Of a stretch of 64,000 bases of DNA, positions 2,184-62,869 are shown piece by piece. A model generated the notes under the pieces. That model saw nothing but the letters and a program-made list of their open reading frames with translations. It made no database searches and was not told the DNA's origin. This DNA comes from Candidatus Enterousia sp. (GTDB taxonomy: Bacteria; Pseudomonadota; Alphaproteobacteria; Rs-D84): NCBI GenBank assembly GCA_045634865.1, contig JAZRBB010000002.1, forward strand, positions 197,162 to 261,161. The letters run 5' to 3'. The translations under genes and the position numbers were made by a program. Within the stretch, counting starts at the first letter, position 1, and the number at the start of each line of letters is the position of its first letter.

Positions 2184-3839
2184 ATGAATTTATATAAATA
2201 TGTATCAGATGCGATAAACGATAAACTTGGACTTGTTGCCAATTTGGAGGTTCCAAAAAATCGTGATTTTGGTGATTTTTCTACAAATGCAGCAATGGTT
2301 GGTGCCAAGGCAGCAGGTAAAAATCCACGCGAATTAGCAAATGAAATCTTGCCAAAGTTGCAAGAACTAAATTTTGTTGAAGACGTTTCTGTCGCAGGTC
2401 CTGGATTTATAAACATTAAAATAAAAGATAATTTTATTCTGAATAACACAACAATACCTGAACACATTGCCACACAAAAATCATTAATGTTAGATTTAGA
2501 TTATGGCAGTTATAATATCGGCAAGGCATTACATATCGGTCATTTGCGTCCAATCGTTGTTGGCGATACTTTCAATCGCATTGCAAAATTCGTTGGACAC
2601 AAAACCAAAAGTTATAATCATGTTGGCGATTGGGGACGCCCAATGGGACTGATTATCGCATGGATTTTGGAATACGGTATGCCAAAAGACGCAGAAGAGT
2701 TTAACAAAATATACCCCGTATCTACAGCACGCGCAAACGAAGACGAAAAATGGCTGAACCATGCACGTGAAATAACATCTGAATTGCAACGTGGTAATCC
2801 TGAATATACCAAAATATATAACGAATTTATCCCTATGTCTTTGGCGCAAATGAACAGCGTTGTCCAAAGAATGAACGTTTTGCCTTTTGATATGATTATG
2901 GGCGAAAAGGGCGTATCTGAATATATCCCAGACGCAAAAGCAATTCTGGAAAACAAAAAATTGCTGGAACAATCTGATGGCGCTTTGGTTGTAAATATTC
3001 GTAATGAAGCAGATAACGCACCGATGCCACCATTGATTTTCCAAACGAATACAGGCGCAAACAGTTATGCGGCTGCAGATGTTGCTGCTATATATTACAG
3101 AAACAAAAATGACAATCCTGATAAAATTGTATACTTTACCGATTCGCGTCAGACGCTACATTTTCAACAACTGTTTCGTGCGGTAAAAATGGCGAATATC
3201 ACAACGGCAGATTTAATACACGTTGGCTTTGGAACAATAACAGGAATGGACGGAAAACCATTCAAAACGCGCGATGGGAATACCGCCAGTTTGTCTGATA
3301 TTTTAGACATGGTGGAAACGGCAGTTCGGGAACGTGTTGCCGAATCAAACAAATCACTTGATGACACAACAATCAACCAAATTGCATTGGCAGCAGTAAA
3401 GTTTAATGACTTGATTCACGACATAAAATCAGACTATGTTTTTGACCCAAAAGCCATCACTAGTTTTGAGGGACGCACAGGTCCATATATATTATATACT
3501 GCCGTTCGGTTAAATTCTGTATTAAAGCGTGCTGACACAACCATAGTAAAGCCAAAATCGTATGAATTATCATCTGATGAACGCAACATTTTGATTCAGA
3601 TTATGGATTTCGAACGTATGATATTGTCTGCTTGTGAAAATCATGCACCTGATTTATTGGCTAATTACACATACGATTTATGCCAACTGGCTAACAACTT
3701 CTATCACAACTGCCCAATTTTGCGCGATGATGTCGCACCAGAATTACGGGCAGGGCGTTTGTACATTGCAAAATTGGCCTTTGACACATTGAAAATCGCC
3801 ATAGATTTAATGGGATTGCAGATTCCAAATGAAATGTAA
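2184..3839 (+). CDS. argS: Arginyl-tRNA synthetase
   Basis: ArgS-like N-terminal domain, class I HIGH motif (ALHIGHLRP), typical length of 551 aa, C-terminus ending ...NEM. RBS AAAGAG upstream. Confidence 0.9.
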   Translation: MNLYKYVSDAINDKLGLVANLEVPKNRDFGDFSTNAAMVGAKAAGKNPRELANEILPKLQELNFVEDVSVAGPGFINIKIKDNFILNNTTIPEHIATQKSLMLDLDYGSYNIGKALHIGHLRPIVVGDTFNRIAKFVGHKTKSYNHVGDWGRPMGLIIAWILEYGMPKDAEEFNKIYPVSTARANEDEKWLNHAREITSELQRGNPEYTKIYNEFIPMSLAQMNSVVQRMNVLPFDMIMGEKGVSEYIPDAKAILENKKLLEQSDGALVVNIRNEADNAPMPPLIFQTNTGANSYAAADVAAIYYRNKNDNPDKIVYFTDSRQTLHFQQLFRAVKMANITTADLIHVGFGTITGMDGKPFKTRDGNTASLSDILDMVETAVRERVAESNKSLDDTTINQIALAAVKFNDLIHDIKSDYVFDPKAITSFEGRTGPYILYTAVRLNSVLKRADTTIVKPKSYELSSDERNILIQIMDFERMILSACENHAPDLLANYTYDLCQLANNFYHNCPILRDDVAPELRAGRLYIAKLAFDTLKIAIDLMGLQIPNEM

Positions 3840-3938: not shown

Positions 3939-4412
3939 ATGACAACGACAAAATCGTTAAAAAAATGCGAATTGGAAGCCAAATGGTATCTGATTGACGC
4001 AACAGATTGCACATTGGGTCGTTTGGCGGTATTTGCTGCCAATATACTGCGTGGCAAGAATAAACCAACATGGACACCAAATATGGATTGTGGCGACCAT
4101 GTTATTATCATCAATGCGGACAAGGTTGCTTTGACAGGACACAAAGATGAAAAGACAAAGTTCTTTTGGCATTCTTTGTGGACAGGCAGCACCAAAGAAC
4201 GCACATTGGGTCAGATGCGCTCTGAAAAACCTGAAAAATTGATTACAAATGCTGTTAAACGCATGATGGGTCGTCGCACAGCAGTTGCATTGGCAAACAA
4301 ACGTTTGACTAAATTGCACGTATATGCTGGCGCAGAACACAAACATTCTGCACAAAATCCAATCGTTATTGATTTTGGTAGTTTGAATCGTAAAAACAAA
4401 AGGGGCGAATAA
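3939..4412 (+). CDS. rplM: 50S ribosomal protein L13
   Basis: [23 protein letters not shown]...LGRLA...[16 protein letters not shown] is a canonical L13 sequence. Confidence 0.95.
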
Positions 4413-4930
4413 TGACAGAAGTTAAAAAAACAGCAGCAAAGAAACCAGCTGCGAAAACAACAGCAAAGAAAGCAGCCCCTGCAAAGAAAGCAACCGTTGC
4501 TAAATCAGCAACTGCAAAGGCTACAGTTGCAACAACAAAATTGTCTGGTGCAACATACGCAACTGGCAAACGTAAAGATTCTGTTGCACGTGTATATCTG
4601 ATGCCGGGCAAGGGTAATATGGTTGTAAACGGCGTTGCCATGAAAGATTATTTCAAACGTGCAGTGTTGCAAATGATTTTGGCACAACCATTTGATGTGA
4701 CAAAACGTGATGGCGCATACGACGTTGTTGCCATGGTATCTGGCGGTGGTTTATCTGGCCAAGCTGGTGCAGTAAAACATGGTATTTCCAAAGCATTGGA
4801 AAAAGCAGAACCAGAATTACGCAAAGCGTTAAAGGCTGCTGGATTCTTGACACGTGATAGTCGTGTTGTTGAACGTAAGCACTATGGTTTCCACAAGGCT
4901 CGTCGTTCTACTCAGTTCAGCAAACGTTAA
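4412..4930 (+). CDS. rpsI: 30S ribosomal protein S9 with ~43-aa Ala/Lys-rich N-terminal extension
   Basis: Canonical S9 core and C-terminus ...[14 protein letters not shown]. Start codon overlaps the rplM stop (ATGA). The N-terminal [19 protein letters not shown] tail is unusual. Confidence 0.95.
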
Positions 4931-4950
4931 TCGCTGGAACAAACACACAA

Positions 4951-4978
4951 AAAGCACCGCAAACGCGGTGTTTTTTGA
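4951..4978 (+). terminator. Rho-independent terminator after rpsI
   Basis: Hairpin aaagcaccgcAAACgcggtgcttttttg. Confidence 0.7.
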
Positions 4979-5044
4979 TAGGAAGGTATCTTGGTATAAA
5001 ACCAGCATGTTTGTTGTGGTTACTAATATTCCCAAATCTTTATG

Positions 5045-9587: not shown

Positions 9588-11508
9588 ATTCTTCATAATC
9601 ATAAAAATATTCTTCATCAGATTCTTCTACAAAACCGGCAGGTTCTTGATAATCTTGCTCTGACACAACCATATCATCATTTTTAGAACCAACATCATAT
9701 ACTGGTTTATTTACAGTAATTTCCTCTACATTTTCTTCCACAGGTTCCTCTTCAACAAAATCACCCGATGTCATAACCTGGGCAGGCACAGAATCCATTA
9801 TCACTGGCTCTGCTGGTTCCTCTTGGACATCTTCTGCAATTGGTTCGGCAGTTTCTTCAACTGTTTCTTCTGGCACAGGTTCAGCCACCACAGACTCTGT
9901 CTCTGCAGGTTCTGTCTCTTCTTCTACAAAAACGAATTCTTCTGGTTCAGTCTCTTTTTCTTTACTAACCTGGACAGGTTCAGTTGTTTCTTCTGGAATA
10001 ACTATTTCTTCTTGGGCGTTTTCAACGGGTTGTTCGTCAACAACTTTCTCTTCAACCACAGCAGCCAATAATGGTTTAGTTTTACCAACATGTTTCTGAT
10101 ATAGCCACAAAGTAAACACCGATAAAATAATCAAAACGACCAACAATAAATAATATACGAAAGTCGGTTTGGAACGATTGGTTTGTTCAGAAACAGATAT
10201 ATTAGTAGAACTAATCGGTGGAACAACTGGCGGAACAGGCATCACAGGCTGTGAATATTGTGGTTCATTATTCATAACAGGTTGCGGTTCTAATTTTGGT
10301 TGTTCTGCAACAGGTTCCATATTTTCCGCTGGTACCATTGATTCTAATACAGGTTTCGGTTCTGATACTGTCGGCAAAATTTCTTCATCATGAACAGGCA
10401 CCATAGATTCCAAAACAGGTTTTGGTTCTTCCAGATGTGGCGTGAACATTGGTGTTTCTGTTTCAATTTCAGGCACAGTCTCTGAAATACTTTCCGAATC
10501 GAATACCGGCTCCTTTTCTTCTGGCGCTGAAATATTCAACGACGGCGCATCAAAAGTGATCGGCTTGAAAGCAATATCTTCATTTAATATTTCTGGGTCT
10601 TTATCAAACAGCGGTTTAATATCACTATCTGCGTTTGCATCTTCGTCATCATCATCAATTTCTTCTTCAATCTCTTCATCATCATCAAAATCATCATCTT
10701 CCAATTCGTCTTCATCCGGTTCAATCTTTTGTATTTCATGCTTTGGTGCAACCATAACAGATTTTGATGTTTTCGGACTTTGTTGTATTTCCAGCGCAGG
10801 CTGATTTAATAAATCGCTGGCCAGTTCTGCATCAACTGTGGCAACCTCTAACCGTTTCTGTGCAGAATCCAGCCTTTTCTTGGCGCGTTTCAGTTTTTCA
10901 TTTGTTGCATCAATCTGAGATTCCACTTTCAGAATCTTGGATGCAGATTGTTTGGTCGGAACCTTTCCAATTTCTTTCTTTTGCGCAGATAATTTTGCAC
11001 GCAAAGTTTTAACACGTTCCTGCAAGCGAACAATTGTTTCTTTGGTTTTTACAATCGTGATATTAGTTTTTGCAATAGTTTCATTCGCAACATTAAGGCG
11101 AATCATCGCACTATGGCGCGCAGCAGAATCACGTAAAATATTCAACTGATTCAAATGTTCAGACAAATCATCACCAGCAATATACGCATCGATAAGATTT
11201 TCATATACAGACAAACCGGAATATTCGATATCAAGTTTTTGATATTTATTATCTTGCTTTGGACGAATCGTTTCCAGATCAACATCATATTCCCCAGAAA
11301 GTATTTCATCCCATTTTTTATCGCCCATTGGGTTTATAACTAATAACACATTAGGTTTGTTCTGATTGATAGTGTTATCCAACACAAACACCAAATCATC
11401 AGAATCATCATAGAAAGCATTGATTGCATTACCATCTATGTTATACGAACGCATATTCAATGTTCCGTATTCTGTTTCATTCACTATATCTTCTCTCTCG
11501 CCTATCAT
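9586..11508 (-). CDS. Hypothetical large acidic single-pass membrane protein (coiled coil, Asp/Glu-rich and Pro-rich segments, one transmembrane helix)
   Basis: 640-aa ORF directly downstream of gcrA on the same strand. Coiled-coil region ~aa 150-230, acidic stretch EDELEDDDFDDDEEIEEEIDDDDED, duplicated PKPVLESMVP, transmembrane segment FVYYLLLVVLIILSVFTLWLY. No recognisable enzymatic motif. Confidence 0.55.
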   Translation of the reverse strand: MIGEREDIVNETEYGTLNMRSYNIDGNAINAFYDDSDDLVFVLDNTINQNKPNVLLVINPMGDKKWDEILSGEYDVDLETIRPKQDNKYQKLDIEYSGLSVYENLIDAYIAGDDLSEHLNQLNILRDSAARHSAMIRLNVANETIAKTNITIVKTKETIVRLQERVKTLRAKLSAQKKEIGKVPTKQSASKILKVESQIDATNEKLKRAKKRLDSAQKRLEVATVDAELASDLLNQPALEIQQSPKTSKSVMVAPKHEIQKIEPDEDELEDDDFDDDEEIEEEIDDDDEDANADSDIKPLFDKDPEILNEDIAFKPITFDAPSLNISAPEEKEPVFDSESISETVPEIETETPMFTPHLEEPKPVLESMVPVHDEEILPTVSEPKPVLESMVPAENMEPVAEQPKLEPQPVMNNEPQYSQPVMPVPPVVPPISSTNISVSEQTNRSKPTFVYYLLLVVLIILSVFTLWLYQKHVGKTKPLLAAVVEEKVVDEQPVENAQEEIVIPEETTEPVQVSKEKETEPEEFVFVEEETEPAETESVVAEPVPEETVEETAEPIAEDVQEEPAEPVIMDSVPAQVMTSGDFVEEEPVEENVEEITVNKPVYDVGSKNDDMVVSEQDYQEPAGFVEESDEEYFYDYEE

Positions 11509-15366: not shown

Positions 15367-15443
15367 TGGTGGATGTGGGCGGACTCGAACCGCCGACCCC
15401 TACGATGTGAACGTAGTGCTCTAACCAACTGAGCCACACATCC
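15367..15443 (-). tRNA. tRNA-Val (anticodon CAC)
   Basis: Reverse complement GGATGTGTGGCTCAGTTGGTTAGAGCACTACGTTCACATCGTAGGGGTCGGCGGTTCGAGTCCGCCCACATCCACCA. Cloverleaf with anticodon loop TTCACAT. Confidence 0.85.
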
Positions 15444-15602
15444 AAAAACCTAATAAAAAACCGCGTTTTGCGGTTATAATGCTTTTGTCCGTATTCGCTA
15501 TCGCTACGGCGAGACACTCAATTTTCTTAATTGTGCGCTTGTAATCACCCACAAAATTTTTTAATTTTGCGGGGCCCGAAGCGCGCGCAATAACGAAAAT
15601 CG

Positions 15603-15690
15603 GTGGTGGGGATAGTGGGACTTGAACCCACACGGTTGCAATAACCAAAGGATTTTAAGTCCTCAGCGTGTACCATTCCGCCATATCCCC
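15603..15690 (-). tRNA. tRNA-Leu (anticodon TAA), long variable arm
   Basis: Reverse complement GGGGATATGGCGGAATGGTA...GAGGACTTAAAATCCTT...GGGTTCAAGTCCCACTATCCCCACCA. Confidence 0.8.
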
Positions 15691-15741
15691 AGGACTTTTT
15701 TACACCCATTTGCCCTCAGAATACCTCTGATACAAAAAGGG

Positions 15742-15817
15742 TGGTGGAGCTGATGAGATTCGAACTCACGACCTCTGCATTGCGAACGCAGCGCTCTACC
15801 AACTGAGCTACAACCCC
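15742..15817 (-). tRNA. tRNA-Ala (anticodon CGC)
   Basis: Reverse complement GGGGTTGTAGCTCAGTTGGTAGAGCGCTGCGTTCGCAATGCAGAGGTCGTGAGTTCGAATCTCATCAGCTCCACCA. G3:U70 identity pair present. Confidence 0.85.
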
Positions 15818-15841
15818 ATGCTTCACATGCTTACAAACACA

Positions 15842-15928
15842 TGGTGGGCATAAGAAGACTCGAACTTCCAAGGTATTGCTACCACTAGTACCTGAAACTA
15901 GCGCGTCTACCAATTCCGCCATATGCCC
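15842..15928 (-). tRNA. tRNA-Leu (anticodon CAG), long variable arm
   Basis: Reverse complement GGGCATATGGCGGAATTGGTAGACGCGCTAGTTTCAGGTACTAGTGGTAGCAATACC..GGAAGTTCGAGTCTTCTTATGCCCACCA. Confidence 0.8.
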
Positions 15929-28399: not shown

Positions 28400-29244
28400 A
28401 AATTATACATTTTTTCACCCCAAAAAGCAAGTAATAGTTCGAGAACCAATTCTCCCTTTGGAGGGAGTACCGGCAAAGCCGGGGAGGGAGGGGAACTCAA
28501 AAAAAACTTTGATAGAAAAAATCCGATAAATATGTCAACAAGCGATTTATTTAACGAAAAATAGGGGACAAAGCGTCAAAAAAGCGTCGCAAACCTGCAG
28601 AAATCTAGGCTTTTTTTGCGATTTTGGGGACAAAATAGGGCACAAAACCCCAATTTTCAGCCATTTTGACCATTTTTTGATATTTTATGTAAAAATGCCT
28701 GTTTTATTATTAAATGCCCCGCACAACATAATTTATGGCACAAAAACGAAAACATAATAAAAAACAAAAAAATTATAAAAAATCAATTTTCAGAAAAACT
28801 TTTCAGATTTCCAATTTAACAAAACTTTATACAGCCACAAACACCCAGAAAACCGCCACTCTTTAGTATTTATGCAAAATTTGATATGAAACACAAATCG
28901 CCCCAGCCCGCACAAATCCGCAAAAAAAAATAATGATTGAATATATAAACCACATTCTTAATCGATTCTCTGCGATGTAAACATATAAACATACGATTGG
29001 AAACATTATAAGCCCAAAAACGCAATCAATTTTCAGCGACCTGAACCTATGATTATACAGTTAAATACAATCAGCAGGCTGAAAAATTCAACACACCAAA
29101 CCACCACAAAATCTGAACGAGATAAACATATAGATATATGATTGAAAACATTTATCTGGCTGATATCTGGCTGAAAATAAACCCATAATATGTGCCAACA
29201 AAGTTTGTTTATGTGCACCAGCATATACATTATATATCAATGTG

Positions 29245-32960: not shown

Positions 32961-33164
32961 TTTTTCCGCCCCTTGGTTAAATCAGTAAATCTATATCGTT
33001 TTTATAACGACAATTATATCATAACAAATATAAAAATGCTAGAGACGCACGCCACACGCGGCGTGATGTAAAAAAGATGAAAAAGATACAAATTTGTTAT
33101 TCATCATGTCCTAATTATACCAGTTCTTTTCTATTTTGCAACAAATTTTGATACAACTTAGAAT

Positions 33165-33345
33165 AAGTTCCCCACCCATGGCGGGGTGGCACGAAGTGCC
33201 GGGGCGGGTATTCTGGTGTATTCGTAATAACGAACGGGTGGAACAAAACTTTATCCACCCCTCCCCGTCTTGATGTTCGCTATGCTCTCATCAATCCACC
33301 CCGCCCAAGGCGGGGAACTTACTCTCATTCTTGAAACACCTCCTT
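33165..33345. repeat. GC-rich palindromic element, copy A (homologous to 59250-59425)
   Basis: Shared blocks cccatggcgggg, gggtattcYggtgt, gaacg..tggaacaa, cccctcYccgtcttg, caatccacccc. Internal palindromes ccccRcccatggcgggg and gggtgg..ccaccc. Confidence 0.7.
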
Positions 33346-33396
33346 CCCCAGCTACGTCGATACTCCCCCAAAAGTGAGAATTGCTATATCACTGAA

Positions 33397-33425
33397 AAAT
33401 AAAAAGTCCCCTTTTTTTGAGGGGA
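33397..33425. terminator. Bidirectional terminator downstream of the 33431 gene
   Basis: aaaaagtcccctTTTTTTgaggggac is a hairpin with flanking A and T runs. Confidence 0.65.
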
Positions 33426-33430
33426 CATAA

Positions 33431-34525
33431 TTATCTGCGCATACCGACAGTAAATTCATCGCCCCAATCAGCAATCTTTTGTCCACCAACCGTGCAATTC
33501 AATGCGTCAAACCCTTTTTCAACCTGACTTTTCTTGATAAGAACACCAGACACAACACCACCGACAGTTCCTAATACTACACCCGCGGTCAAGTCAGATG
33601 CCAAGCGAACACCATTGAAAGAGCCATCTGCATTTTTCCAAACACTTTTATCAGAATCCACTTTGCTGAAAAACTCTTTCAATCTTGCATGTGCCGCGCT
33701 AATTTTTTTAGAATCAGTATTTGCATTTTTATCTGTATCAGCCACAACACGAGCACTTGATGTATCAGGTGTTTCCACAGAAACATCACTAAAATTGACA
33801 GATGCTATCGAAGTCCCTTTACATATACTGTCAATTTTATCTTTATATTTAAGCTCTATTTTTCTGGCTATTTTTTCTGCATCGTCATTTTTATCAATTT
33901 TAAGATTATCTACCCTGAAAGAGCCGGTCTTTCCGTTATCACACCTAACTGTGATATCGCCTACAAATTCACAATCGCCATTTTCACACACTGTCCCCTG
34001 GGGAACATTACACGTTTCACAAAAACATCCGACAAAAGCTTTACCACCACTCATTTTGACAACACTGGTTGGTTTTAGCATTTTGTTAGCCTCAATATAA
34101 TCTACAATCTTTGGTTTACAAATTCCGTCACCAGCACAATTCTTTTCACATTTTTTCATTGCTTCTGCTTCTGAATAACAATAGCCTAAAATACGCGCAT
34201 TTTGGGTTTTAGAAACATCATATTTGGTTTCAAACACCAATGGCATTACTTGACCATCAGGACACTTTCTAGCAACGCAACGCAATTCACCACTATTAAA
34301 TTTTTTGCAAACACCGTCTTGCCCTGCACCATTTCCATCTTGCTCACAATCCTGGTCTACTTTTTTACAAGTAGGTTTTAATTCAACTTTTTTGTATTTA
34401 ATCCATGGACAAACATCATCATCATTTGATGTCAAACCAGATTGCACAGTTTCTGCATTGGAATCCTGGGCGACAACGCCACCAAATATAACCATCACAG
34501 ACAAAATAGAAATAAACTTCTTCAT
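33431..34525 (-). CDS. Hypothetical secreted Cys-rich protein with conserved C-terminal module (shared with 34675-36675)
   Basis: Signal peptide MKKFISILSVMVIFGGVVAQ. Many Cys. The C-terminal ~85 aa are nearly identical to the paralog downstream. Confidence 0.65.
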   Translation of the reverse strand: MKKFISILSVMVIFGGVVAQDSNAETVQSGLTSNDDDVCPWIKYKKVELKPTCKKVDQDCEQDGNGAGQDGVCKKFNSGELRCVARKCPDGQVMPLVFETKYDVSKTQNARILGYCYSEAEAMKKCEKNCAGDGICKPKIVDYIEANKMLKPTSVVKMSGGKAFVGCFCETCNVPQGTVCENGDCEFVGDITVRCDNGKTGSFRVDNLKIDKNDDAEKIARKIELKYKDKIDSICKGTSIASVNFSDVSVETPDTSSARVVADTDKNANTDSKKISAAHARLKEFFSKVDSDKSVWKNADGSFNGVRLASDLTAGVVLGTVGGVVSGVLIKKSQVEKGFDALNCTVGGQKIADWGDEFTVGMRR

Positions 34526-34640
34526 GATACTACCTCTTTATAAATATCACTATGGTGCGCATTGTAGCATAAAAATAATCAAATACAAATTTTTTTGATT
34601 TAACATATTCAGTTCAACAAACATCTATGCCTCAAAAAAC

Positions 34641-34658
34641 AGCCTCGAAAGAGGCTGT
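34641..34658 (-). terminator. Terminator hairpin downstream of the 34675 gene
   Basis: cagcctcTTTCgaggctg followed by a T-run on the minus strand. Confidence 0.6.
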
Positions 34659-34674
34659 TTGTATGGTACTAGCA

Positions 34675-36675
34675 TTATCTGCGCAGACCGACACTGAATT
34701 CATCACCCCAATCAGCAACTTTCTGCCCATTAATGGTGCAATTCAAAGCATCAAATCCTTTTTCAACTTGGCTTTTCTTGATTAACACACCAGATACAAC
34801 ACCACCAACCGTGCCCAATACTACACCCGCAGTCAAATCAGATGCCAAGCGCACACCATTGAATGAACCATCTGCATTTTTCCAAACACTTTTATCAGAA
34901 TTCACTTTGCTGAAAAACGCATCAAGATTTGACTTTGCCTTGGTTAATCGCTCTACTTTTCTGCGTTGTTCTTCGGCATCTTCTTGTTTTGGCAGTTTGT
35001 CTGCGTCATCATCTTGGATGTCATTTGAACAATTCTTATCTGCCAATTTCTTTGCCATATCTGCATTACCTGCAAATTTTTTATTAAAGTCTGCACAAGT
35101 AAGCCCATTTAGATCTTCCTTGCTCAAATTGATTTCCATACTGATTCCTTTGGAACAAGCAATCGTATATTTACACCCAGCAACAACATCAGACTTTTCA
35201 ACACATCTTGCAGCATTCCAAGTCTTAGTATCATCAGGCAACTGTGTTTCAGGAACAACACAATAACAACTACCATTATCTATATCACCAGTCCATTTTG
35301 TGTTTTTACCTGCTTTACAACACGCTAAACGTTTAGGATGTCCAGCATATAAATCATTACAAGTTTTCTTTGCACCCGGCTGTTCGTTATCTGGTTGTTC
35401 ATTTTTCGGTGTCGTCTTCTTGGCATTAGGATCAGGAACACAATCATTATTTTCCCATTTCATACCAGGATCTATACATCTCCATTTCCAACATGGTACA
35501 GTATGTCCGTTTTCCGTTTCCCAAAATGCAACAGGTTCATAATGAGCACCCTTTGCAGGAAAATTATACTTGACACCTCCTTCCTTGCACCAGCGAAGTT
35601 CTGGATCAGACCAATCATCATCCATTCCTTTGCCTTTCCATCCTTGATCCGTCTTATATACCCCACCCATAGGCCCTTTTTGTACACAATAATTGATATA
35701 ACCAAATTTATTACTGTGTATAGCGCGACCAATAGCCAGATTTTCCGTATAAGGCCCCATCAAAGCAGCATTTCCATCCGTAACATTACAACAATGTGTC
35801 CACTGCGGGTAAACATCGCTTTTTACACAATCAGACTGAGAAGCAACACGGGTCAGCATTAAACCACCACCAATCGCCGCACCAACACCAATTGCAACAC
35901 CATATCCAACTTGGCCGGCCATAGGAATCGCATTCAACGCCATTGCTATACCCCCCGCAGCCTTTGCGCCCCCCACAGCACCTTTAAATACACCAGACGC
36001 ACCAACTTCACCCTCTTCAAGGAAAGTATTTTTTACATCGTCTAAACCCTCTTTCTCAAGCATCAAACCCATACCAACTTGCAATGCCTGTCCAGCTGTT
36101 ATTTTCCCCACACCCTCATAACCAATCTTCTGTGCGATTCCACCAGTACCACCACCTGCCGCACCGGCACCAGATGCACCACCTGCTGTACCACCGCTCA
36201 TACGCTCTTTGGCTATTTTTTCAGCATATTTATTTGCTTTATCCAATTCTTCTAACTTATATGTTTTTATATTCTCACCTTTTGCACTAATTTGATTACC
36301 TGCTTGATCATAAAATCTATTTCCTTTCTTTGTTAATTTTTCCATGGCACCCGTTTCTCTGTTAACACCCCAATGAGTATTTGTAGCTGCAGTATTTGCA
36401 CTTGGCGTCGCAGAGGGTGTTGAATTTGGTATTGACGGTTCCAATTTAGGAGTAAGATTTTTAGTAAAGTCTGGGTCTATAAGATCCGCCTCTTTTATTG
36501 CAGAACCCATTTTATCTACGAATTTGCCCTCTGGAGTCATATACACGTCTCTTAAATAATTTTCGCCATCTGTCGAGGGTGCATAATATTTTGTTAACTG
36601 CCAATCTGAAACAGCAGACACAGCAGGACTAATTCCAAACACAATTACAGATAACATAAAAAGTATTTTTTTCAT
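34675..36675 (-). CDS. Hypothetical secreted protein with a Gly-rich glycine-zipper region, Cys-rich domain and conserved C-terminal module
   Basis: Signal peptide MKKILFMLSVIVFGISPAVSA (start at 36675, RBS AGAAGGGA). GGTAGGASGAGAAGGGTGG...GVAIGVGAAIGGG region. C-terminus paralogous to 33431-33700. Confidence 0.65.
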   Translation of the reverse strand: MKKILFMLSVIVFGISPAVSAVSDWQLTKYYAPSTDGENYLRDVYMTPEGKFVDKMGSAIKEADLIDPDFTKNLTPKLEPSIPNSTPSATPSANTAATNTHWGVNRETGAMEKLTKKGNRFYDQAGNQISAKGENIKTYKLEELDKANKYAEKIAKERMSGGTAGGASGAGAAGGGTGGIAQKIGYEGVGKITAGQALQVGMGLMLEKEGLDDVKNTFLEEGEVGASGVFKGAVGGAKAAGGIAMALNAIPMAGQVGYGVAIGVGAAIGGGLMLTRVASQSDCVKSDVYPQWTHCCNVTDGNAALMGPYTENLAIGRAIHSNKFGYINYCVQKGPMGGVYKTDQGWKGKGMDDDWSDPELRWCKEGGVKYNFPAKGAHYEPVAFWETENGHTVPCWKWRCIDPGMKWENNDCVPDPNAKKTTPKNEQPDNEQPGAKKTCNDLYAGHPKRLACCKAGKNTKWTGDIDNGSCYCVVPETQLPDDTKTWNAARCVEKSDVVAGCKYTIACSKGISMEINLSKEDLNGLTCADFNKKFAGNADMAKKLADKNCSNDIQDDDADKLPKQEDAEEQRRKVERLTKAKSNLDAFFSKVNSDKSVWKNADGSFNGVRLASDLTAGVVLGTVGGVVSGVLIKKSQVEKGFDALNCTINGQKVADWGDEFSVGLRR

Positions 36676-36751
36676 GATTTTTTCCCTTCTTTTCAATTTA
36701 TTCATGTATCTTATTTTATCATAACACACACACTAAAAAAAGCGTTTTTTA

Positions 36752-62792: not shown

Positions 62793-62869
62793 GTGCCCAT
62801 GGCTCAACTGGATAGAGCAATTGCCTTCTAAGCAATAGGTTGCAGGTTCGAATCCTGCTGGGCACGCCA
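62793..62869 (+). tRNA. tRNA-Arg (anticodon TCT)
   Basis: GTGCCCATGGCTCAACTGGATAGAGCAATTGCCTTCTAAGCAATAGGTTGCAGGTTCGAATCCTGCTGGGCACGCCA. Good cloverleaf. Confidence 0.85.

What the first reader, a model, noticed from the sequence alone, without database searches (positions are those of the whole stretch)
33165..33345. Two copies of a ~170-nt GC-rich palindromic element, each just past the 3' end of a large secreted-protein gene
33165-33345 and 59250-59425 share ordered blocks: ccccRcccatggcgggg (a perfect palindrome), gggtattcYggtgt, gaacgKctggaacaa, cccctcYccgtcttg and caatccacccc. The surrounding genome is AT-rich, so the GC content stands out. Each copy sits just past the 3' end of a big signal-peptide protein gene (33431-34525 and 56657-59230), and both are in the same plus-strand orientation. 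Copy B carries an extra GC-rich insertion. This looks like a dispersed structured element, either a small non-coding RNA family or a REP- or MITE-like mobile repeat, rather than a coding remnant. No ORF spans either copy. I cannot assign it to any RNA family I know.
Basis: seen in the sequence. Interest (0 to 1): 0.75.

Follow-up and report, generated by a model that had tools for sequence, protein, structure and literature searches.

The report
Nuclease-linked GC-rich palindromic repeats, ORF-less copies
The two GC-rich elements are real, gene-less copies of a selfish palindromic DNA repeat family of uncultured gut and rumen Alphaproteobacteria, whose full-length relatives carry one small DUF559 (Vsr-like) nuclease gene between the same hairpin arms; they are most likely not RNA genes.

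Summary
Copy A (33165-33320) and copy B (59242-59424) are homologous (76% over 93 nt, E 3e-13), 56% G+C in a 38% genome, and non-coding. They match no Rfam family. More than 15 related copies occur in uncultured Alphaproteobacteria (UBA1218, RUG12675, rumen and gut metagenomes). All are intergenic, in either orientation to neighbouring genes.

The key result is that the same GC-rich hairpin arms flank a 115-aa DUF559 (Vsr-like PD-(D/E)xK) nuclease gene in relatives. Copy B's 5' arm is 91% identical to both terminal inverted repeats of such an element. Intermediate copies keep a remnant of the nuclease ORF.

Copy A is absent from the same hisS-upstream site in a conspecific strain (HisS 98% identical).

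The nuclease gene is under purifying selection (dN/dS 0.03-0.17). The arms are better conserved than its synonymous sites.

I read the window copies as miniature, partly decayed derivatives of a nuclease-bearing selfish element that acts as DNA. Spread by nuclease-stimulated recombination is inferred, not shown. The small-RNA reading has little support: few compensatory changes and no strand consistency. The window also holds two solo arms of a second subtype (28448-28493, 33339-33382).

The parts
33165..33320 (+). Copy A, an ORF-less type-1 element. Layout: hairpin H1 33170-33186; small hairpin 33188-33200; inner-helix 5' arm CGGGGCGGG 33200-33208; core 33209-33257 (TATTCTGGTGT, a hairpin, then GAACGGGTGGAACA and an AT-rich tail); inner-helix 3' arm CCCCTCCCCG 33258-33267; GTCTTG-hairpin-CAAT 33268-33295; terminal hairpin H1' 33299-33315.
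   Evidence: nhmmer E 1.7e-32; 30-nt TIR, 83% complementary
59242..59424 (+). Copy B, an ORF-less type-1 element. Layout: left end CTGATAC 59242-59248; H1 59254-59270; H2 GGGACCGCttgcGG up to 59284; 33-nt GC-rich insertion 59285-59317; GGGGAGGG 59319-59326; core 59327-59376; 3' arm CCCCTCTCCGTCTTGC..CCACCCCTCCGGTGGAAAGGAAT 59377-59424, whose terminal hairpin has decayed.
   Evidence: 5' arm 91% identical to both TIRs of the DUF559 elements L023-L029; E 3.9e-34; 3' arm matches the L049 DUF559 3' arm
33339..33382 (+). Fragment D, a solo decayed type-2 3' arm (CCTCCTTCCCC-AGCTACGTCGA-TACTCCCCCaaaaGTGAGAATT) next to copy A. It is part of the same strain-specific block.
   Evidence: 80% to fragment C, inverted; the whole block 33146-33426 is absent in conspecific L048
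28448..28493 (+). Fragment C, a solo type-2 5' arm (AATTCTCCCtttgGAGGGAG-TACCGGCaaaGCCGG-GGAGGGAGGGG) with no core and no 3' arm. It lies at a synteny breakpoint with the conspecific strain.
   Evidence: (93% to the TIR of the P0152-type DUF559 elements, E 7.7e-11)
33406..33426 (-). Intrinsic terminator of the 364-aa secreted-protein gene. It is not part of the element, but it belongs to the block that replaces the ancestral terminator.
33114..33141 (-). Conserved hisS promoter (TTGCAA, 16 nt, TG-TATAAT), 24 nt from the left end of copy A. It marks the left boundary of the strain-specific block.

Best explanation
Copies A and B are miniature, ORF-less members of a modular family of GC-rich inverted-repeat DNA elements. 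The family is confined, as far as these searches show, to a clade of low-GC uncultured gut and rumen Alphaproteobacteria.

Anatomy. A full-length element has outer hairpin arms (GTTCCCCNCC-loop-GGNGGGGAAC), one or two small GC hairpins and an inner helix (GGGGNGGG...CCCNCCCC). The central loop holds a promoter-like AT-rich leader and a single 115-aa DUF559 (Vsr-like PD-(D/E)xK) nuclease gene. In the window copies the nuclease gene is gone. What remains between the arms is a core of about 50 nt, which aligns with the start of the nuclease gene's 5' leader.

Shown:
1. The arms of the window copies are homologous to the arms of DUF559 elements.
2. Intermediate copies retain an ORF remnant.
3. Copy A is present or absent between conspecific strains, and DUF559 elements sit at different loci in syntenic relatives.
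4. The nuclease ORF is under purifying selection, and the arms are better conserved than its synonymous sites.
5. Modules are shuffled, nested, tandemly amplified and inverted between strains.

Inferred: the elements are selfish DNA that acts as DNA. They spread and homogenise by nuclease-stimulated recombination. In this model the nuclease cuts in or near ORF-less copies and the break is repaired from another copy, with the shared arms serving as homology. That is homing-like gene conversion rather than cut-and-paste transposition. The window copies themselves are probably inert relics. Copy B has lost its 3' hairpin, and copy A came in as part of a 281-nt block that replaced a terminator. 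Any effect on transcription or mRNA 3' ends would be incidental.
For: Family and distribution:
- Pattern scans found 5 loci in the MAGs UBA1218 and RUG12675 and 2 true metagenome loci.
- nhmmer with 9 copies finds at least 15 distinct copies with E from 1e-22 to 1e-44.

Link to DUF559:
- In L002, the ORF at 4691-5035 is DUF559 (Pfam E 2.4e-27; PDB 3HRL E 2e-16). It sits between the same arms.
- Copy B nt 11-45 is 91% identical to both TIRs of L023-L029 (E 2.5e-6). Copy A's ends match the 3' arm of the L002 element (93% over 31 nt). Fragment C is 93% identical to type-2 TIRs.
- In L049, a second DUF559 gene of UBA1218 is followed by two tandem ORF-less copies, and its 3' arm matches copy B's 3' arm.
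- The insert of the L009/L005a-type copies aligns to the codons for NLAEVLLWHEL in the DUF559 ORFs of L002 and L023; 2-3 of 300 shuffles score as well.

Mobility:
- The block 33146-33426 is absent in L048 (HisS 98% identical), while the flanks match at 95%. It is also absent in L022 and L020.
- The DUF559 element lies at different loci in the syntenic pair L030 and L040.
- There are inversion and tandem-amplification polymorphisms.
- Most DUF559 homologues are on short contigs, as expected for repeats.

Selection:
- dN/dS is 0.03-0.17. D51, E62, D64 and H68 are conserved.
- ORF third positions are 59-67% identical, while the 5' arms of L002 and L023 are 46/46 identical.

DNA rather than RNA:
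- No Rfam hit.
- 15 of 15 copies are intergenic, with 3 sense and 7 antisense to the abutting gene.
- The better-folding strand differs between A and B.
Against: - No DUF559 gene lies in this 64-kb window, and the rest of the source genome could not be read. The partner element in this organism is therefore predicted, not seen.
- No nuclease activity, target site or transfer event has been shown.
- No clean empty site with a target-site duplication was found. Strain differences are segment replacements, which fits recombination but does not prove that the nuclease causes it.
- Arm types are shuffled among DUF559 protein groups and many copies have hybrid arms. The arms might be mobile modules independent of DUF559 that merely accumulate around it.
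- The type-1 core contains a helix UUCYGG/CUGGAA with a fixed G.U that pairs only on the + strand. This is a weak hint of an RNA-level constraint.
- The ORF-remnant alignment is short (31 columns, p about 0.01).
Confidence: 0.72

Rival explanations
1. The elements are genes for a structured small RNA, or a cis-acting 3'-UTR RNA motif, transcribed from the + strand. The conserved core and hairpins would be its functional fold.
For: - Both copies fold well as + strand RNA (z -5.9 and -3.3).
- The consensus fold has three hairpins or helices.
- The core helix UUCYGG/CUGGAA carries G.U pairs that work only on the + strand: 21 G.U against 8 A.C cells.
- The arms are more conserved than synonymous sites of the neighbouring ORF.
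Against: - No Rfam family matches in the window or in 77 kb of related loci.
- Only 3 of 27 pairs show double changes, and the covariation term is -0.95 kcal/mol.
- Copy A folds better on the - strand (-89.6 against -75.4 kcal/mol), and its H1 has an A.C on + that is a G.U on -.
- Copies lie sense or antisense to the abutting gene.
- The element is absent in a conspecific strain.
- Modules are lost, nested and shuffled, and copy B has lost its terminal hairpin.
- Fourteen of the 21 G.U cells come from two fixed columns in related copies, so they are not independent.
Confidence: 0.08
2. They are classical MITEs moved in trans by a conventional transposase (for example IS630/Tc1-like, or a Y1 RAYT/IS200-type enzyme acting on hairpins) encoded elsewhere. 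DUF559 would be only a passenger or a neighbour.
For: - Copy A has 30-nt terminal inverted repeats, and a TA dinucleotide can be read on both sides of AGTTCCCC...GGGGAACT (by inspection).
- Modules are nested in hairpin loops of other modules, as seen for IS elements that target REP sequences.
- Arm types are shuffled relative to DUF559 protein groups.
Against: - No transposase Pfam family appears among about 150 called genes around elements in L020-L049.
- No consistent target-site duplication is seen, and the termini differ between copies (CTGATAC.. against ..CTCTCGAACTAG).
- The REP tags GTAG and CGTC are absent.
- In five of six independent loci the only ORF found inside the arms is DUF559, with its stop codon within 30 nt of the 3' inner arm.
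- An ORF remnant survives in intermediate copies.
Confidence: 0.12
3. The hairpin blocks are host-serving punctuation: transcription insulators, mRNA 3' stabilisers, or recombination sites that drive turnover and inversion of variable surface- or secreted-protein genes. On this view they are kept by the host rather than being selfish.
For: - 12 of 15 copies face the 3' end of a gene, and copy B starts 12 nt after a stop codon.
- Copies sit beside fast-evolving secreted or surface genes.
- Fragment C and block A lie at synteny breaks with a conspecific strain.
- In L023-L027 the inverted repeats reach into the 3' ends of convergent large genes, and inversion swaps their C-terminal 40 residues.
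Against: - No T-run follows the hairpins. Copy A sits after a separate, normal terminator, and the conspecific strain does without the element.
- Copies decay (copy B, fragments C and D).
- This reading does not explain the conserved nuclease ORF inside the arms.
- It does not exclude the selfish-DNA reading.
Confidence: 0.08

Closest known systems
[quoted passage not shown]
   Same: Short, non-coding and multi-copy, with terminal inverted repeats. They are intergenic and polymorphic between strains. A longer partner shares the same ends and has one ORF in the middle.
   Different: The partner's ORF is a 115-aa DUF559/Vsr-like PD-(D/E)xK nuclease, not a known transposase. No target-site duplication was seen. 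The ends are modular hairpins that vary between copies. Differences between strains are replacements and shuffling rather than clean insertions.
REP/BIME and REPIN elements with RAYT transposases (PMC2817692, PMC3116915, PMC3733652)
   Same: GC-rich extragenic palindromic hairpins, clustered in mosaics in both orientations, mostly downstream of genes, and associated with one dedicated small gene.
   Different: There is no GTAG or CGTC tag. No Y1 (RAYT) gene was seen; the associated gene is DUF559. The units are longer (150-180 nt) and have a non-palindromic core.
Free-standing and intron-encoded homing endonucleases of the Vsr-like (EDxHD) family, e.g. I-Bth0305I (PMC3239194, PMC2677866). DUF559 is grouped with Vsr and I-Bth0305I in PMC3424549.
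   Same: A small nuclease of the same structural group is the only gene of a selfish insert. ORF-bearing and ORF-less versions share homologous flanks, which is the arrangement homing needs.
   Different: The element is not in an intron, an intein or a conserved host gene. The 'target' would be a dispersed repeat. No cleavage or homing has been shown. DUF559 proper has no characterised homing member that I know of (own knowledge).
GC clusters of yeast mitochondrial DNA (PMC4478555)
   Same: Mobile, GC-rich palindromic hairpin elements scattered in the AT-rich intergenic DNA of an alphaproteobacterium-derived genome. They are polymorphic between strains and prone to nesting and recombination.
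   Different: The yeast elements are much shorter (about 30-60 bp). The sequences are unrelated. No dedicated nuclease ORF sits inside them. The resemblance is one of behaviour only.
Rickettsia palindromic elements, Correia/NEMIS, ERIC and BOX (own knowledge)
   Same: 100-200-nt palindromic or modular dispersed repeats of small bacterial genomes. BOX elements are likewise built from modules.
   Different: No sequence similarity is expected, and none could be tested here because no models of these families are held. None of them is known to have a DUF559-bearing full-length form.

Membership tests
MITE | Terminal inverted repeats | tested here: met
   Copy A has arms at 33160-33189 and 33296-33325, 30 nt, 83% complementary. 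Copy B has lost its 3' arm hairpin.
MITE | No coding capacity, small size | tested here: met
   The copies are 156 and 183 nt. No ORF spans A. B lies only in a stop-free stretch of element length.
MITE | Target-site duplication flanking each copy | tested here: not met
   No shared direct repeat is found at the ends of 15 copies. Comparison with a conspecific strain shows a 281-nt block replacing 24 nt, not a clean insertion.
MITE | Autonomous partner with the same ends that encodes a transposase | tested here: inconclusive
   Partners with the same arms exist (L002, L023-29, L030-45, L049). Their only ORF is a DUF559 nuclease, which is not a recognised transposase.
REP/BIME (RAYT-dependent) | GTAG or CGTC tetranucleotide tag at one end of each 20-40-nt palindrome (PMC3733652) | tested here: not met
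   The hairpins start with GTTCCCC, ATTCCCC or ATTCTCC.
REP/BIME (RAYT-dependent) | A Y1 (RAYT) transposase gene flanked by the repeats | tested here: not met
   No Y1_Tnp or other transposase family appears among the genes called in L020-L049. Only parts of the genomes were available.
Any Rfam RNA family | Score at or above the family's gathering threshold | tested here: not met
   Only tRNAs pass in the window and in 7 related loci. The best sub-threshold hits on the elements are CRISPR-DR10 (E 2.7) and DUF3800-XI (E 3.7).
Structured RNA (generic) | Compensatory base changes that support one strand-specific fold | tested here: inconclusive
   3 of 27 pairs show double changes. There are 21 G.U against 8 A.C cells, mostly from fixed columns in related copies. 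Strand preference differs between A and B.
Homing-endonuclease element (Vsr-like/EDxHD group) | An intact nuclease ORF of a homing-endonuclease-related family inside the element | tested here: met
   This holds for full-length relatives only: DUF559 E 2.4e-27, 3HRL E 2e-16, conserved D51/E62/D64/H68, dN/dS 0.03-0.17. It does not hold in the window copies.
Homing-endonuclease element (Vsr-like/EDxHD group) | ORF-less alleles that share flanks with the ORF-bearing allele | tested here: met
Homing-endonuclease element (Vsr-like/EDxHD group) | The nuclease cleaves the ORF-less site, and repair copies the ORF in | not testable with these tools
   This needs biochemistry or a genetic conversion assay.
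Integron attC site | RYYYAAC ... GTTRRRY core sites and a nearby IntI integrase | tested here: not met
   The ends read GTTCCCC...GGGGAAC, which is the opposite arrangement. No integrase was called near any copy.
CRISPR array | Regularly spaced identical repeats with unique spacers | tested here: not met
   The window has three hairpins, two of them the ends of one element. There is no array. The only tandem array seen (L040) has identical 'spacers'.

The most novel reading that the evidence does not exclude
DUF559 nucleases together with modular GC-rich inverted-repeat arms form a previously undescribed class of autonomous selfish element in bacteria. The small Vsr-like nuclease would recognise the hairpin or core DNA of its own ORF-less copies, possibly at the fixed T.G/G.T mismatches that appear when the arms extrude. 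It would then drive copy-to-copy gene conversion and new insertions. This would be a bacterial counterpart of mitochondrial GC clusters, and it would give a first function to the widespread stand-alone DUF559 proteins.
Probability: 0.3. Interest if true: 0.75.

Novelty: new variant of a known kind. Interest (0 to 1): 0.52.

Why it matters
Dispersed palindromic repeats are common and usually dull. What is unusual here is the partner gene.

Stand-alone DUF559 proteins are very widespread and have no assigned role. This search alone returned 977 close homologues at E 1e-10 or better. In this clade the DUF559 gene sits, under purifying selection, exactly in the central loop of inverted-repeat elements, and the ORF-less miniatures of those elements litter the intergenic DNA. 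If the nuclease moves or homogenises these repeats, DUF559 gains a function, and a Vsr-like nuclease joins the short list of enzymes that propagate miniature repeats (DDE transposases and RAYTs).

There are also practical consequences:
- These repeats break metagenome assemblies; most DUF559 contigs are under 3 kb.
- They mark the borders of strain-variable surface-protein regions.
- They can mimic small-RNA genes in screens based on G+C content and folding energy.

For this window alone, the finding is two decayed repeat copies with no evident function.

Tried and rejected
- Rfam at gathering and at permissive thresholds on the window, on both copies and on 7 related loci: only tRNAs.
- Viral contigs scanned with the core pattern: no hit.
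- 12 of the 14 metagenome pattern hits were chance matches inside unrelated coding DNA.
- Exact look-ups of window proteins (HisS, PrfA, P0241) to reach the source contig failed. The rest of the source genome could not be searched for DUF559 genes.
- tblastn of the DUF559 and GIY-YIG proteins against the window: nothing.
- Copy B's site could not be compared with relatives. The 857-aa gene has no homologue above 61% identity apart from its own entry, and it shares no synteny with the L023-type loci.
- Looking for clean insertion boundaries in L024/L025 and in L040/L041 gave identical sequence or complex replacements, not empty sites.
- A G.U against A.C strand-asymmetry test was not decisive because the copies are related.
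- Literature searches for DUF559, ycjD, Vsr-like homing endonucleases and palindromic repeats found no description of this association.
- DUF559 homologues are rare in phage records: 3 weak hits.
- Considered and dropped: attC sites, CRISPR repeats, group I/II intron fragments, retron msr/msd, and IS200/605 omega-RNA remnants. None had the associated gene, a model hit or the required end motifs.

Full report
**1. The observation**

- The hairpin motif CCCCRCCCAWGGCGGGG occurs three times in the window, against 0.01 expected. Two occurrences are the two ends of copy A and one is the 5' end of copy B.
- blastn gives 76% identity over 93 nt, E 3e-13.
- Both copies have 56% G+C in a window of 38%.
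- Neither copy is spanned by a real ORF.

The refined limits are A = 33165-33320 and B = 59242-59424. A further solo arm lies at 28448-28493.

Copy A has 30-nt terminal inverted repeats. Copy B's 3' hairpin has decayed, and B carries a 33-nt GC-rich insertion (59285-59317).

Both copies are on the + strand. However, the gene abutting A is on the - strand and has its own terminator in between, while the gene abutting B is on the + strand. Their orientation relative to the neighbouring gene is therefore opposite.

**2. Not a known RNA**

Rfam gives only tRNAs at gathering thresholds, and only insignificant hits on the elements at E up to 10. The same holds for 77 kb of related loci.

**3. A family exists**

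A pattern drawn from the core found copies in two uncultured alphaproteobacterial MAGs, UBA1218 and RUG12675, and in two rumen or gut metagenome contigs. The other 12 metagenome hits were chance matches. None was found in viral contigs.

A profile built from nine copies then detected at least 15 distinct copies with E from 1e-22 to 1e-44. It also matched the reverse strand more weakly, as expected for palindromic elements.

All 15 copies are intergenic. Twelve face the 3' end of a gene, but they lie sense (3) or antisense (7) to that gene.

**4. The link to a nuclease gene**

In L002 (UBA1218), next to an ORF-less copy, the same arms enclose a 115-aa ORF. The 5' arm reads CTGATACTAGTTCCCCGCCtggGGCGGGG-GGGACCGCttgcGGTGG-GGAGGG. 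The 3' arm reads AACCCTCCCCGTC...CCCCGCCtcaGGCGGGGAACTTACTCTCGAACTAG.

The ORF is DUF559 (Pfam E 2.4e-27). Its nearest solved structure is 3HRL, and it hits the YcjD-type NCBIfam model below that model's cut-off (55.8 bits against 218). The literature groups DUF559 with Vsr and with the homing endonuclease I-Bth0305I (PMC3424549; PMC3239194).

A database search gave 977 homologues at E 1e-10 or better. Most are exactly 115 aa and most sit on short contigs.

I fetched the flanks of five further DUF559 loci. In all of them the gene lies among GC-rich hairpin arms of this family.
- L023-L029: about 125-nt perfect inverted repeats.
- L030-L045: a second arm type, ATTCTCCCCttggGGGGAG-TACCGGC..GCCGG-GGAGGGAGG.
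- L049: a third arm type.
- L046: arms of the third type follow the stop codon, but no matching inner arm lies directly upstream of the gene.

How the window pieces match these arms:
- Copy B's 5' arm is 91% identical to both inverted repeats of L023-L029.
- Copy A's ends match the 3' arm of the L002 element (93% over 31 nt).
- Fragment C is 93% identical to the type-2 arm.
- Copy B's 3' arm matches the 3' arm of the L049 element.

The window itself has no DUF559 gene.

**5. Direction of descent**

The type-1 core (TGTGTTTGTAATTATGAAC..) aligns with the start of the leader of the L002 and L023 nuclease genes (TGTGTTTTTAATATTGAAC..), which contains their -35-like hexamer (by inspection).

Longer copies (L009, L005a, L003) keep an extra 55-60 nt. 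Part of it aligns with the codons for NLAEVLLWHEL in two independent DUF559 genes; only 2-3 of 300 shuffles score as well.

The ORF-less forms are therefore best read as internal-deletion derivatives of ORF-bearing elements. The alternative, that the nuclease gene inserted into a pre-existing repeat, is not excluded.

**6. Mobility and instability**

- At the hisS-upstream site, a conspecific strain (L048, HisS 98% identical, flanks 95% identical) has a 24-nt terminator stretch where the window has a 281-nt block. The block holds a new terminator, fragment D and copy A. Two more distant relatives also lack it.
- Fragment C sits at the edge of a synteny block with L048.
- In the syntenic relatives L030 and L040, the DUF559 element lies at different loci.
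- Within one species the DUF559 segment is inverted between samples. The inverted repeats run into the 3' ends of convergent large genes.
- A 53-nt terminal module is amplified four to five times in L040 but occurs once in L041.
- Modules are nested in hairpin loops of other modules, and many copies have arms of two different types.
- UBA1218 has at least two DUF559 genes and at least seven ORF-less copies on five contigs.
- I found no target-site duplications. Strain differences look like replacements.

**7. Selection**

DUF559 genes from five loci give dN/dS of 0.03-0.17 with saturated synonymous sites. The catalytic-type residues D51, E62, D64 and H68 are conserved in 22 sequences.

Third codon positions are only 59-67% identical. 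By contrast, the 5' arms of L002 and L023 are identical over 46 nt, and 23 nt of their leader are also identical. The arms are thus either constrained at the nucleotide level or repeatedly homogenised.

**8. RNA or DNA?**

The consensus + strand fold has hairpin H1, an inner helix, a core helix UUCYGG/CUGGAA and a terminal hairpin. Only 3 of 27 pairs show double changes.

G.U cells outnumber A.C cells 21 to 8. However, 14 of the 21 come from two fixed columns, and five of the A.C cells from one column.

Copy A folds better as the - strand and copy B as the + strand. Taken with the inconsistent orientation relative to neighbouring genes and the presence/absence within a species, the evidence favours DNA-level palindromes. 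The fixed G.U helix in the core is a small unexplained point in favour of RNA.

**9. Mechanism**

Shown: homology with the arms of DUF559 elements, polymorphism, an intact and selected nuclease, and conserved arms.

Inferred: the nuclease makes breaks in or near element copies, and repair from other copies uses the shared arms as homology. This would spread the ORF, homogenise the arms and generate the replacements, inversions and tandem amplifications seen. This is how homing endonucleases work, and DUF559 belongs to the Vsr/I-Bth0305I structural group. I put about 0.4-0.5 on this specific mechanism, and about 0.85 on the broader statement that the window copies are ORF-less relatives of DUF559-bearing palindromic elements.

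Rivals: an sRNA gene, a classical MITE moved by an unseen transposase, and host-serving punctuation or recombination sites. None is excluded outright, and the last is compatible with the main reading.

**10. Comparison with known systems and novelty**

The elements behave like MITEs or REP/BIME mosaics and, in an AT-rich genome, like yeast mitochondrial GC clusters (PMC4478555).
- They fail the REP tests: no GTAG/CGTC tag and no RAYT gene.
- They fail one MITE test (no target-site duplication), and the partner ORF is not a known transposase.
- They match no Rfam family.

I found no paper linking DUF559 to dispersed palindromic repeats.

I classify the finding as a new variant of a known kind. 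For this window it is two decaying repeat copies. The wider association with DUF559 is what deserves follow-up.

Noticed in passing
window 33110-32961 (- strand), upstream of hisS: Downstream of the conserved hisS promoter lies a 22-codon ORF, MMNNKFVSFSSFLHHAACGVRL*. Its two adjacent His codons overlap the 5' arm of the hairpin CACGCCGCG..TGGCGTG. The region is almost invariant in relatives. In L020 the hairpin changes on both arms (CACGCCC..GGGTGTG) and the His-His pair is kept. This may be a histidine-sensing leader peptide or attenuator for the histidyl-tRNA synthetase gene.
   Followed up: partly
window 28448-28493: A solo type-2 5' arm (fragment C), 93% identical to the inverted repeats of another DUF559 element subtype. 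It has no core and no 3' arm, and it lies where synteny with the conspecific contig L048 ends (window 28512 matches L048 16541).
   Followed up: yes
window 33339-33382: A solo, decayed type-2 3' arm (fragment D) between copy A and the terminator of the 364-aa gene. It is part of the 281-nt block missing in the conspecific strain.
   Followed up: yes
L023-L027, about 9840-10470 in each locus: The DUF559 segment is inverted between samples of one species. The inverted repeats extend into the 3' ends of two convergent large genes (both end ..WGKWEEP.CNEL*). Different crossover points swap about 40 C-terminal residues (893/209 aa against 933/169 aa).
   Followed up: partly
L040 6380-6600 compared with L041 6380-6425: A 53-nt unit (terminal hairpin plus linker) is repeated four to five times in tandem downstream of the DUF559 gene in one sample and occurs once in another.
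   Followed up: partly
L046 3651-3962 and flanks 3420-3470 / 4080-4130: A 103-aa GIY-YIG nuclease gene lies 480 nt from a DUF559 gene and has its own inverted repeats. Half of that repeat (AAAGTCTCGACGTAGCGACAGCAAAGACGGAC) is found inside the H1 hairpin loop of the ORF-less copies L002b and L004. A second nuclease-bearing element family appears to nest in the first.
   Followed up: partly
L010 3367-3453, L002 4250-4393, L040 5766-5865: Another conserved module of about 90-140 nt (..TTCGCTCG..GCGTATACCGTRACG..CACTTCGTTTGCRAAAYCTACTTGT) directly precedes the 5' end of elements in three different genomes. Its nature is unknown.
   Followed up: no
window 33431-36729 compared with L048 8666-9787: The window has two secreted-protein genes (684 and 364 aa) where the conspecific strain has one (373 aa). 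Both window genes share the conserved last 245 nt or so with the single L048 gene (89% and about 70-90%). This suggests duplication or replacement of surface-protein genes anchored on a conserved 3' end.
   Followed up: partly
window 15370-15928 and 62793-62866: A cluster of four tRNA genes on the - strand and a single tRNA gene on the + strand. These are ordinary.
   Followed up: no
L002 4655-4693, L049 9960-10003, L023 9965-10003: The promoter-like hexamers of the DUF559 genes (TTGAAC or TTGAAT, 15-17 nt, then TAAAAT or TATAAT) lie so close to the ATG that the mRNA would be leaderless or nearly so, with no Shine-Dalgarno sequence.
   Followed up: no
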